Virus record (IMG/VR): IMGVR_UViG_3300049846_001393
Location: 1 to 64,000 of that record
Reading direction: 5' to 3' (one strand)
DNA length: 64,000 nucleotides
Source of the DNA: a virus
The first letter of the stretch is position 1. Each line of letters starts with the position of its first letter. Below the pieces are notes generated by a model. That model saw only the letters and a program-made list of their open reading frames with translations, was not told the origin of the DNA and made no database searches. Both the position numbers and the translations under genes were made by a program. Of this stretch, positions 61,962 through 64,000 are shown in pieces.

Positions 61962-62711
61962 TCAGTCAGGAACACAAGATTTCCAAATGAAATCTAGAGC
62001 CCCCGTGTGGATCTGACAAACCCTTGACTCAGTTACCTCAAGCATCTCACCAATCTCTTTAAGAGAAAGACCCTCAATATAATGCAAGAAGAACACAGTC
62101 TTTTGCTGACTGCTAAGATCCTTAAACGAATCAAAAATCTTTTCTCTCAAAACTAAAAGATCTTCTTCATCTAAAACCTGATAGTTATTTGACTCATCAG
62201 GAATAATATCTGAAAGTTTAAAAGAATCTCCATCAGAATTAATAACTTCATCAATATTAAAAACTGAAGCGGTACTACCAGCACCCTTAATTCTTGATAT
62301 ATCTTTTATATTCCAACCTAGTGCTTCAGCAACTTCTTCATCACTTGGCTCTCGTCCCAGATCATTGGACAATTTCTCTGAAACAAAATCAATCTCACGA
62401 TTCTTAGACCTTAAAGAACGTGGAGCCCAATCAAACTGACGAAGCCTATCAAGAATTTCTCCACGAATTCTAAAACTGGCATAGGTTTCAAACTTATAAC
62501 CATACGATGAATCATATTTTGTAATAGCATCCATCAGTCCAATAAAACCATCTGAAACAAGATCATCATAGTCTACGTGATTAGGTAGACCTCTGGCGAT
62601 GGAAGCAGCAGTGCTCTTAACAAGATATTCATAGGCAATAACTAAATCTTGAAAAGTAGAACCATCAATTAAATATTGATTCCATAATTTTTCTGTATCC
62701 ATAAAAAGCAT
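61962..62711 (-). CDS. FliA/WhiG-family (sigma28) RNA polymerase sigma factor
   Basis: DDLVSDGFIGLMDAI, FETYASFRIRGEILDRLR..DWAPRSLR, LSLKEIGEMLEVTESRVCQIH. Confidence 0.93.
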   Translation of the reverse strand: MLFMDTEKLWNQYLIDGSTFQDLVIAYEYLVKSTAASIARGLPNHVDYDDLVSDGFIGLMDAITKYDSSYGYKFETYASFRIRGEILDRLRQFDWAPRSLRSKNREIDFVSEKLSNDLGREPSDEEVAEALGWNIKDISRIKGAGSTASVFNIDEVINSDGDSFKLSDIIPDESNNYQVLDEEDLLVLREKIFDSFKDLSSQQKTVFFLHYIEGLSLKEIGEMLEVTESRVCQIHTGALDFIWKSCVPD

Positions 62712-62759
62712 CTTAATGGTAAAAATACTTATTTAAACACAAAAACAAAAGAACTCATT

Positions 62760-63060
62760 TCTCAGTTAAGGCAGACTTCACCCCACCCCACAGGGAAAAA
62801 CAGCAAAACTGTAACGGTCGGTGTCTTCACCTAAATGATATCTCAATCACTGGATCAGATTACTACTCAGCAAGTTGCTTAGATGAAACTGCCCAGACGT
62901 TCCTTTACCAGTTTCCCTGCTTTTCGCTTGGGACGGCACTGATGACGGATTGCCCACCGGAAGAGTCAAGGCCACCTTCAGTCCTGCGGCGCTGTATGGG
63001 GCGCATCCCACAATCTTCATTCAGTTTTCTAAGCAAGCCGAGTGTAGGTCACGCTCAGCG
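62760..63060 (-). ncRNA. large structured non-coding RNA, ROOL-like (tentative)
   Basis: GC-elevated intergenic block with many nested stems and a long-range closing stem; the order of motifs recalls the ROOL 5' core from memory, not verified. Confidence 0.55.
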
Positions 63061-63302
63061 ATTGTAATAACGCGAGCACAGAAACCAGGCTCTTCGAGGA
63101 GAATTTGTCTTAATGTAGATAAGGAACAGAGCTCTCGAGTCGTCCGGGTGCGACCGTCCAGTTATCTAGATAATATCATATTCCCTGACATCTTCCTGGG
63201 AATCACACGAGCATTGTTTTCATTTGCGACCGATCCGGTCCATTATGTTAACAAAACTGTCGTTATAGATACTGTAGCGACAGTCGCCTGAAAGGTTTCC
63301 CA

Positions 63303-64000
63303 ATGGCACAAAAGCCCAAGGGGGTTGCCGACCACCCAGCAAAAGATCTGATGGAACAGATCTGGAAGTCTGGTGGTCGTGCCAAAGATATCGTTGCTTT
63401 CTTGGAGGAGAACTCCCTACCTCTTGTAAAAGAAGCAACTATTGCTCGTTATGGTCAGAGATTCTGGAATGAGCAGATCAAGATCACTACAGAGTCTGAA
63501 TCTCCTGAAGATATTGCTACCACTATAAAAAAGATTGAAGATAGTGGTGTAGCTCGTGTAGTAAAGCTTTCTCATTCAAAAAAGAAGTATCCTGGATGGG
63601 AAAAAATTAATGGTGAAAATATTCAGGTAGAAAAAGAGTCTAACTCTTGGAATATTGATCTTGTTCCATCTCTACCTGCTCCAGATAAAGCATCTATTGG
63701 ATCTTTTAAGATTAATGTTAAGGGTGTTAAGAAGCAGTCGAAGCCACATGGCTGGAATGTTGGGCTTGTTGTGCCTGACCCACAGATCGGATATTTCCGT
63801 GATGTGGATGGAAATTTGACGACAACCCACGACGAGGCAGCCCTGAACGTGGTTCATCAAATTGGTGTATATCTTAATAACACCTATGGTCTTGACCTTA
63901 CGGTTATCCTCGGGGACAACCACGACTTCAGTGCTTTCTCTACACATAGAAGCGCACCTGGCTATACGACCAATACCCAGTTAGAGATTGATCGCTTTGG
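63303..64000 (+). CDS. calcineurin-like metallophosphoesterase (truncated by window end; absent from the ORF track)
   Basis: Open frame from ATG 63303 (GAAAGG SD): MAQKPKG...LVVPDPQIG...THDEAAL...VILGDNHDF. Confidence 0.8.
   Translation, partial: MAQKPKGVADHPAKDLMEQIWKSGGRAKDIVAFLEENSLPLVKEATIARYGQRFWNEQIKITTESESPEDIATTIKKIEDSGVARVVKLSHSKKKYPGWEKINGENIQVEKESNSWNIDLVPSLPAPDKASIGSFKINVKGVKKQSKPHGWNVGLVVPDPQIGYFRDVDGNLTTTHDEAALNVVHQIGVYLNNTYGLDLTVILGDNHDFSAFSTHRSAPGYTTNTQLEIDRF

What the first reader, a model, noticed from the sequence alone, without database searches (positions are those of the whole stretch)
62760..63060. Compact, ornate non-coding RNA (ROOL-like) upstream of the phage sigma factor
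Seen: a ~590-nt intergenic region in an otherwise gene-dense genome, with no convincing ORF. On the minus strand it can form nested helices: closing stem AAAACUG/CAGUUUU (63022-63028 with 62805-62811), UGUGGG/CCCAUA (63007-63012 with 62995-63000), ACUGA/UCAGU (62978-62982 with 62938-62942) enclosing AAGG/CCUU and UGAC/GUCA, GAAACUG/CAGUUUC (62909-62915 with 62885-62891), AGCA-ACU-UGCU (62869-62879), GGUG-AAGA-CACC (62820-62831), and a 5' hairpin GCUGAG/CUCGGC (63037-63059). From memory, the ordered motifs UGAAUGAAGAUUG...GACUGAAGGUGG...UUCCGGUGGGCAAUCC...UCUAAGCAA...UGAGUAGUAAUCUG resemble the 5' core of ROOL RNAs. ROOL RNAs are large RNAs of unknown function found mostly in Firmicutes and their phages. 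Inference: this is a roughly half-length ROOL relative, or a new large RNA class, in an actinobacterial phage. It lies on the same strand as the sigma28 gene and just upstream of it, with a CGCGTTATT motif (63066-63074) at its 5' end that matches the putative phage promoter box.
Basis: partly seen in the sequence, partly recalled or inferred. Interest (0 to 1): 0.82.

Follow-up and report, generated by a model that had tools for sequence, protein, structure and literature searches.

The report
New conserved phage RNA, not ROOL
Upstream of the sigma-factor gene of a group of freshwater phages lies a roughly 260-base non-coding stretch kept almost letter-for-letter, with base-pair-preserving changes in some hairpins, that matches no known RNA family (including ROOL), so it is a credible new phage RNA of unknown function.

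Summary
The intergenic region is real (62703-63302) and holds a conserved core at 62773-63034 on the minus strand. I found it in 8 sequences (about 5 lineages) of freshwater viral or metagenome contigs, always between a divergent metallophosphoesterase-like gene and a WhiG/FliA-type sigma gene followed by nrdJ.

- **Conservation:** the core is 82-95% identical between lineages. Four-fold synonymous sites of the adjacent sigma gene are only 43-60% identical.
- **Not coding:** non-3n indels put the invariant middle third into different reading frames in different lineages.
- **Structure:** two hairpins (62835-62850, 62800-62812) show repeated compensatory changes, and one more pair covaries (62977/62962). 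Most other proposed helices are invariant and untestable. Folding energy is no better than shuffled sequence.
- **Not ROOL:** no Rfam family matches, even at E<=10. ROOL, GOLLD, OLE and raiA membership is not supported.

A conserved TTnACA-16 nt-TAnnnT promoter-like pair places the start near 63034. The sigma ATG (62702) has its own TAnnnT and no Shine-Dalgarno sequence. My best reading is a new, clade-restricted, stand-alone phage RNA; a cis-acting leader is the main rival. Expression was not testable.

The parts
62773..63034 (-). Conserved non-coding RNA core (~262 nt), from GCUUAG to GUCU
   Evidence: Alignments A1, A4, A7 and A8. Identity between lineages is 82-95%, against 43-60% at 4-fold synonymous sites of the sigma gene. 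There is a single copy in the 79-kb record.
63063..63068 (-). -35-like hexamer (ATTACA here; TTTACA, TTAACA or TTTACG in homologues)
   Evidence: Columns 4-9 of A4 are conserved in all lineages, while the 16-nt spacer after them is not. This is an inference; the consensus scan did not list it because it scores 8 of 12.
63041..63046 (-). -10-like hexamer TACACT (TAnnnT in every lineage), 6-8 nt before GCUUAG
   Evidence: Columns 26-31 of A4 read TACACT, TACAAT, TAATCT, TACCTT and TATCTT. The start near 63034 is inferred, not measured.
62997..63008 (-). 5' strand of the proposed closing helix (GGAU, then CGCCCCA)
   Evidence: RNAalifold pairs it with 62773-62785. 9 of 11 pairs never vary. One pair changes on one side, U.G to U-A. 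The local UGGG/CCCA hairpin is an untested alternative.
62773..62785 (-). 3' strand of the proposed closing helix (UGGGGUG, two unpaired bases, GUCU)
   Evidence: L007 lacks one G here.
62960..62979 (-). Hairpin GAAG/CUUC (62976-62979 with 62960-62963). Its loop word GCCUU (62968-62972) can pair with UGGGC (62952-62956) as a possible pseudoknot.
   Evidence: A-U becomes G-C in L003. The loop-to-downstream pairs change C-G to U.G and A-U to G.U. The competing nested fold is invariant.
62885..62915 (-). Hairpin GAAACUG/CAGUUUC with a 17-nt nearly invariant loop (includes AAGGAACGUCUGGGC at 62891-62905)
   Evidence: There is an extra base pair in the window and L002, and a U-A to U.G change in L015. 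The loop is invariant except at two positions.
62835..62850 (-). Hairpin P_e (GUGAU ... AUCAU)
   Evidence: Three of five pairs change on both sides: G-C/A-U; A-U/G-C/C-G; U-A/G-C. All cells stay paired.
62800..62812 (-). Hairpin P_f (ACAG ... CUGU)
   Evidence: The stem reads ACAG/CUGU, GUAG/CUAC or GCAG/CUGC in different lineages. U-A appears in both L003 and L015, whose sister L007 has C-G. Some lineages insert a second hairpin after it.
62738..62772 (-). Poorly conserved tail with an ACUGA(A)GAAA word and a U-rich run; possible weak terminator
   Evidence: L007 and L015 have 5-bp hairpins followed by U-rich runs; the others are weaker. The terminator scan found none on this strand.
62710..62715 (-). 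TAAGAT, a -10-like hexamer 7 nt before the sigma ATG (62700-62702); no Shine-Dalgarno sequence
   Evidence: TAnnnT lies at the same place in 6 of 6 representatives, although the sequence differs. Only 1 of 54 long ORFs of the window has one there.

Best explanation
This is a real non-coding RNA element under selection. It belongs to a previously undescribed family that I could find only in one clade of freshwater phages, probably of Actinobacteria.

**Shown**
- The core 62773-63034 is conserved far above the neutral level.
- It cannot be a conserved protein-coding gene.
- It has hairpins whose pairing is kept by compensatory changes.
- G.U pairs fit only the strand shared with the sigma gene.
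- No Rfam family matches it.

**Inferred**
- It is transcribed by the host housekeeping RNA polymerase from a TTnACA-16 nt-TAnnnT promoter, starting near 63034.
- It folds into a multi-helix body closed by CGCCCCA/UGGGGUG, with at least one possible pseudoknot and long invariant loops.
- It ends in the U-rich tail (about 62740-62757).
- It acts as a stand-alone, early-expressed RNA through its folded shape, binding a protein or another partner, rather than by long antisense pairing.
- The sigma gene downstream has its own -10 element and is read as a leaderless mRNA.

The partner and the biochemical activity are unknown.
For: **Conservation**
- The core is 0.82-0.95 identical between lineages. 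Four-fold sites of the sigma gene are 0.43-0.60 identical and its protein is 0.68-0.79 identical for the same cross-lineage pairs.
- The intergenic DNA upstream (63075-63235) is unalignable even between the window and L002.
- Contigs from other samples carry 0-1 differences across the core, against roughly 3-9% in the flanking genes.

**Not coding**
- Non-3n indels sit at A7 columns 53, 150, 167 and 201.
- Lineages A/B and C/D/E read the invariant middle ~97 nt in different frames, from different start codons.
- All six frames are largely open because the core is GC-rich.

**Structure**
- P_e has three pairs changed on both sides.
- P_f has two covarying pairs, one of which changed twice independently.
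- One compensatory pair lies in GAAG/CUUC.
- 97% of cells are paired, against 30-49% when the 3' partners are slid. The covariation score exceeds all 500 shuffles.
- One helix gains a base pair by a matched insertion, and some lineages carry an optional inserted hairpin.

**Strand**
- G.U pairs are invariant or frequent in several helices.

**Separate transcription unit**
- The two hexamers are conserved while the spacer between them varies.
- A TAnnnT ends 6-7 nt before the sigma ATG in 6 of 6 lineages, with no Shine-Dalgarno sequence. Only 1 of 54 other ORFs has this.

**Novelty**
- No Rfam hit.
- No match in GenBank phages.
- No true match in one genome per prokaryotic species for the most conserved 19-mer.
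Against: - There are only 8 sequences from about 5 closely related, fully syntenic lineages.
- About three quarters of the proposed pairs never vary, so most of the fold is a prediction.
- Minimum free energy is no better than shuffled sequence (z -0.91; -1.9 to +1.4).
- No transcript data exist. The listed 'RNA-Seq' runs are probably DNA.
- No convincing intrinsic terminator separates the element from the sigma gene, so read-through, and therefore a leader role, is possible.
- The element always lies upstream of the same gene on the same strand. That is what a cis-regulator would look like, although here it may reflect synteny alone.
- The promoter hexamers are consensus-like guesses (8 of 12 in the window).
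Confidence: 0.55

Rival explanations
1. It is a cis-acting 5' leader of the sigma-nrdJ operon. It would be either a ligand- or protein-sensing switch or a put/EAR-like RNA that modifies RNA polymerase so that it reads through into the sigma gene. The closing helix and the two GGGGUG repeats would provide alternative pairings.
For: - Same strand and same position directly upstream of the sigma gene in all 8 loci.
- No strong terminator lies between the core and the sigma gene.
- In L007 and L015 the tail hairpin overlaps the 3' strand of the closing helix, so the two would exclude each other.
- A C-run and CGCCCC can each pair with either GGGG run.
Against: - The spacer between the core and the ATG is poorly conserved and varies in length.
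- The sigma gene has no Shine-Dalgarno sequence that could be masked.
- A conserved TAnnnT at leaderless distance suggests the sigma gene has its own promoter.
- 260 nt of near-invariant sequence is large for a switch, and no known riboswitch or leader model matches.
- Synteny among close relatives carries no weight as evidence for cis action.
Confidence: 0.27
2. It is a diverged, roughly half-length member of the ROOL family.
Against: - No ROOL, GOLLD, OLE or raiA match at gathering score or at E<=10 with permissive filters.
- No tRNA gene lies in the window.
Confidence: 0.02
3. It is a DNA-level element, such as a replication origin, a packaging or regulatory region, or a single-stranded DNA hairpin site between divergent genes, rather than an RNA.
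For: It lies between divergent transcription units next to nucleotide-metabolism genes. Compensatory changes would also preserve DNA hairpins.
Against: - Many conserved G.U pairs would be A.C mismatches on the other strand and in a duplex cruciform.
- 260 nt with ~75% invariant positions is far more than protein-binding sites need.
- There are no iterons or repeats. The only recurring feature is short ACUG/CAGU words.
Confidence: 0.06
4. It encodes a small protein. ORFs of 43-66 codons are open in the core.
For: Sense ORFs of 57 aa (window 62847-63020) and 61 aa (L003) exist. A few substitutions are synonymous in one frame.
Against: - One-nucleotide indels at columns 53 and 150 make the two lineage groups read the invariant middle third in different frames.
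- The start codons differ: AUG in A/B, GUG in C/D/E, and GAG at that place in L002.
- The window has a stop where the others read on.
- All six frames are open, as expected for a GC-rich island in an AT-rich genome.
Confidence: 0.03

Closest known systems
ROOL RNA (Rfam RF03087) and GOLLD RNA (RF01998)
   Same: Large, sequence-conserved non-coding RNAs of unknown function that occur in phage or prophage DNA.
   Different: - No covariance-model match.
- About half of ROOL's 581 nt, with far fewer junctions.
- No tRNA neighbourhood in the window.
- Found only in one clade of freshwater phages.
- Oligomer formation is untested.
HK022 put RNAs and EAR-type processive antitermination RNAs
   Same: Placed just downstream of a promoter and upstream of a long operon on the same strand. 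These RNAs act through their fold on RNA polymerase. This comparison rests on my own knowledge.
   Different: Those RNAs are about 65-120 nt. There is no sequence or model similarity, and no terminators that need overriding have been shown here.
6S RNA and mycobacterial Ms1 RNA
   Same: Stable RNAs of 180-300 nt that bind RNA polymerase. A polymerase-directed role would fit a position next to a phage sigma gene. This comparison rests on my own knowledge.
   Different: Those RNAs are long rods, in 6S with a central bubble. The predicted fold here is branched. No Rfam 6S hit was found, and binding is untested.
phi29 pRNA (packaging RNA)
   Same: A phage-encoded structured RNA made from an early promoter that acts as a folded RNA, not as an antisense (my own knowledge).
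   Different: No match to any Rfam family, pRNA included. The phage type is different, and there is no link to the packaging genes, which lie about 10 kb away.

Membership tests
ROOL (RF03087) | Scores against the Rfam covariance model | tested here: not met
   No hit at gathering score in the window or in eight further loci, four of them homologous. No hit at E<=10 on 62600-63400.
ROOL (RF03087) | [quoted passage not shown] | tested here: not met
   The conserved core is 262 nt, at most ~295 nt with the tail. The covariance model built on the proposed fold has 4 branch points, and the fold has one possible pseudoknot (description).
ROOL (RF03087) | Often next to tRNA genes and in prophages | tested here: not met
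   ARAGORN finds no tRNA or tmRNA in the 64-kb window. Earlier notes place tRNAs more than 3.6 kb beyond the window's end, more than 4.5 kb from the element.
ROOL / GOLLD / OLE | Homo-oligomeric RNA-only assemblies (PMC12286853) | not testable with these tools
   Needs size-exclusion chromatography or cryo-EM.
GOLLD, OLE, raiA, HEARO, RNase P, 6S, tmRNA, pRNA, known riboswitches (Rfam 15) | Scores against the family's covariance model | tested here: not met
   Searches give no relevant match. The only hits with E between 1.7 and 9.5 are short chance matches to unrelated families.
Structured non-coding RNA (generic) | Conservation above neutral, no coding pattern, and compensatory base-pair changes | tested here: met
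   Covariation is limited to two hairpins plus one further pair.
Structured non-coding RNA (generic) | Fold more stable than shuffled sequence | tested here: not met
   z is -0.91 and -1.9 to +1.4 across homologues.
Cis-regulatory leader / riboswitch (generic) | A conserved expression platform (terminator or masked ribosome-binding site) linked to the sensor | tested here: inconclusive
   No terminator was found by scan. Weak AU-rich hairpins followed by U runs occur in some lineages. The sigma gene has no Shine-Dalgarno sequence.

The most novel reading that the evidence does not exclude
It is the founding member of a new class of phage RNA that works with the transcription machinery. It could be a polymerase-binding decoy or a cis-acting antitermination RNA that helps hand the host polymerase over to the phage's WhiG-like sigma factor, or it could be a new ribozyme. 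Near-invariance of about 200 nt across phages whose proteins are only ~70% identical is the level seen in catalytic or ribonucleoprotein RNAs.
Probability: 0.15. Interest if true: 0.8.

Novelty: new variant of a known kind. Interest (0 to 1): 0.55.

Why it matters
Large, highly conserved bacterial and phage RNAs without a known job are rare, and they have repeatedly led to new biochemistry. This one is a clean candidate:

- It is under stronger constraint than the proteins beside it.
- It is absent from Rfam.
- It sits at the head of the operon that encodes the phage's own sigma factor.
- It occurs in phages that appear widespread in fresh water: 20 public runs from 12 studies hold at least part of the stretch.

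If it acts on RNA polymerase or on a host defence, it would reveal how phages of abundant, hard-to-culture freshwater Actinobacteria take over their hosts. If it proves to be only a leader, it is still a new regulatory RNA for a phage sigma factor.

Tried and rejected
- **blastn against GenBank phages:** the 611-nt region gave no match. tblastn of the sigma protein found no close cultured phage; the best was 37% identity.
- **Pattern scans for the conserved blocks:** four related IMG/VR contigs beyond the window's own record. Three further distinct sequences came from JGI metagenomes, plus six chance hits. One genome per prokaryotic species gave twelve hits, all chance by nhmmer. L008 was a chance hit.
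- **Protein-guided search for more distant phages**: L040 and L041 keep the synteny with long spacers. Neither nhmmer, nor the covariance model R1 with filters on or off, nor Smith-Waterman against shuffles finds the element there.
The sigma relatives of 46-75% identity from the protein search, whose contigs I did not already hold, could therefore not be fetched. This is the main limit on the covariation analysis.
- **Sequencing runs:** no RNA holder is listed. The four 'RNA-Seq'-labelled runs are probably DNA, and I laid three of them. Contigs give no starts, ends or expression levels.
- **Antisense targets:** only one 13-nt complement exists elsewhere in the window, to a variable part of the RNA, about what chance gives.
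- **RNase P idea:** AAGGAACGUC(C/U)GGGC recalls the CR-I block from memory. The order of elements does not fit, and no RNase P model scores.
- **RNAalifold's long-range pairing** of GAACUG with the CAGUUU of hairpin P_f: rejected because P_f covaries as a local hairpin.
- **Sense versus antisense alifold energies** (-113.8 against -106.1) are not decisive.
- **Pairing of the invariant GCUUAG with the 3' tail or with the internal CUAAGC:** it is possible but either inconsistent between lineages or invariant, so I left it open.

Full report
**What is there**

The window belongs to a 79-kb linear IMG/VR virus record. Two genes lie on the minus strand:
- a WhiG/FliA-type sigma factor, with Pfam Sigma70 regions 2, 3 and 4 and PHROG 'RNA polymerase sigma factor';
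- a class II ribonucleotide reductase.

A gene for a 446-aa metallophosphoesterase-like protein diverges from them at 63303. The gap between the sigma ATG and that gene is about 600 nt and holds only short, non-conserved ORFs. GC rises to 0.53-0.56 in its middle.

**Relatives**

Searches used the sigma protein and exact words from the conserved blocks. They recovered the same locus in four other IMG/VR contigs and three further distinct metagenome contigs. With the window this gives 8 distinct sequences in about 5 lineages:
- A: the window
- B: L002
- C: L003
- D: L005, L011 and L020
- E: L007 and L015

All have the same gene order. The remaining pattern hits are chance matches. Public reads from 12 studies, where labelled mostly freshwater, river, sediment or other aquatic metagenomes, hold at least part of the stretch.

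**Conservation**

The alignments show three conserved modules in an otherwise unalignable spacer:
- a block next to the divergent gene (63237-63302);
- two hexamers at 63063-63068 and 63041-63046;
- a core from GCUUAG (63034) to GUCU (62773).

Between lineages the core is 82-95% identical. Four-fold synonymous sites of the neighbouring sigma gene are 43-60% identical and its second codon positions 83-91% for the same cross-lineage pairs. Contigs from other samples laid on the window show 0-1 differences across the core, against roughly 3-9% in the flanking genes. This is strong purifying selection on the nucleotide sequence itself.

**Not a gene for a protein**

The core is a GC-rich island, so all six frames are largely open. 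One-nucleotide indels at alignment columns 53 and 150 mean that lineages A/B and C/D/E read the invariant middle ~97 nt in different frames. They also use different start codons, and the window has a stop where the others continue. Variable positions show no 3-nt rhythm. They cluster in hairpin stems and loops.

**Structure**

| Feature | Window coordinates | Evidence |
|---|---|---|
| Hairpin P_e | 62835-62850 | Three of five pairs change on both sides, with three pair types at one position. Every cell stays paired. |
| Hairpin P_f | 62800-62812 | The stem reads ACAG/CUGU, GUAG/CUAC or GCAG/CUGC. U-A occurs in L003 and in L015, whose sister L007 has C-G, so it arose twice. Lineage D and L015 insert a further hairpin after it. 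|
| GAAG/CUUC | 62976-62979 / 62960-62963 | A-U is replaced by G-C in L003. Its loop word GCCYN can pair with UGGGC downstream, with wobble-preserving changes, giving a possible pseudoknot. |
| GAAACUG/CAGUUUC | 62909-62915 / 62885-62891 | Gains a base pair in A/B through a matched insertion. |

By parsimony on the lineage tree this amounts to about nine independent compensatory events.

Over the whole proposed fold, 97% of cells are paired, against 30-49% when partners are slid. The covariation score exceeds all 500 shuffles. That model was partly derived from these same sequences, and 37 of 53-54 pairs (about 70%) never vary.

The closing helix CGCCCCA/UGGGGUG plus GGAU/GUCU and several inner helices are therefore predictions only. 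Folding energy is not better than shuffled sequence. This argues against calling the RNA 'ornate' on present evidence. Frequent G.U pairs fit only the sigma-sense strand.

**Identity**

No Rfam 15 family reaches its gathering score in the window or in eight further loci, four of them homologous. A permissive scan of the region lists only chance matches with E of 1.7 or more. [quoted passage not shown] This element is 262-295 nt, and the window has no tRNA gene.

My covariance model finds one copy in the genome. It finds nothing in 76 more distant sigma-bearing viral loci, including two that keep the synteny. The family is new to Rfam and, as far as I could search, restricted to one clade.

**How it probably works**

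Upstream of the core, all lineages keep TTnACA and TAnnnT separated by 16 non-conserved bases. The second hexamer ends 6-8 nt before GCUUAG. This is the signature of a housekeeping-type promoter and puts the 5' end near 63034.

Downstream, the sequence up to the sigma ATG is poorly conserved, but it keeps a U-rich run and a TAnnnT ending 6-7 nt before the ATG. It has no Shine-Dalgarno sequence, whereas nrdJ has AGGAGG. Only 1 of 54 other long ORFs has such a hexamer at that place.

I therefore read the sigma gene as a leaderless mRNA with its own promoter, and the RNA as a separate, early transcription unit acting through its fold. No long antisense target exists in the window. This step is inference: no transcript data could be had, and no clear terminator was found. 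The main rival is a cis-acting leader, either a switch or a put/EAR-like antiterminator for the sigma-nrdJ operon. ROOL membership, a DNA-level element and a small protein are unlikely.

**Verdict**

The fallback reading, 'a new RNA class', is supported as a candidate. The limits are few sequences, one clade, a mostly untested fold and no expression data.

Noticed in passing
window 63237-63302 (+ strand): A block conserved between the window, L002 and L003 lies directly upstream of the metallophosphoesterase-like gene. It reads TTAACA, 16 nt, TACTGT, then the Shine-Dalgarno-like AAAGG. It contains an inverted repeat ACTGTCG ... It is probably the divergent promoter with an operator or a 5'-UTR hairpin.
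   Followed up: partly
window 62700-62715 (- strand): The conserved start of the sigma gene is the ATG at 62702 (MDTEK...), not 62711. A TAnnnT hexamer ends 6-7 nt before it in all lineages and there is no Shine-Dalgarno sequence, which suggests a leaderless mRNA.
   Followed up: partly
L040:1539-2446 and L041:1717-2365: More distant phages with the same gene order have 650-900-nt spacers at this locus. These hold long CT-rich (L040) or AG-rich (L041) low-complexity tracts and a GC-rich part (L040:2095-2420, fold z -2.17). There is no Rfam hit and no similarity to the window RNA, so this may be a different non-coding element at the same place.
   Followed up: partly
L005:2481-2765, L015:790-1075: Lineage D and L015 carry an extra hairpin (UGAAAC/GUUUCA; UGAA/UUCA in L015) inserted after hairpin P_f. 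L007, L003, L002 and the window lack it.
   Followed up: yes
window 62891-62905 (- strand): The nearly invariant loop word AAGGAACGUC(U/C)GGGC recalls, from memory, the CR-I block of bacterial RNase P RNA. No RNase P model scores and the order of elements does not fit.
   Followed up: partly
window 62764-63036 (- strand): The words ACUG(A) and (U)CAGU recur about seven times along the RNA, including near both ends. This gives several mutually exclusive pairings whose meaning is unclear.
   Followed up: no
window 62675-63584: A DNA run labelled as a single organism (X18, 'organism A') holds a 911-nt contig about 91% identical to this stretch. It may be a culture or enrichment carrying a related phage.
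   Followed up: no
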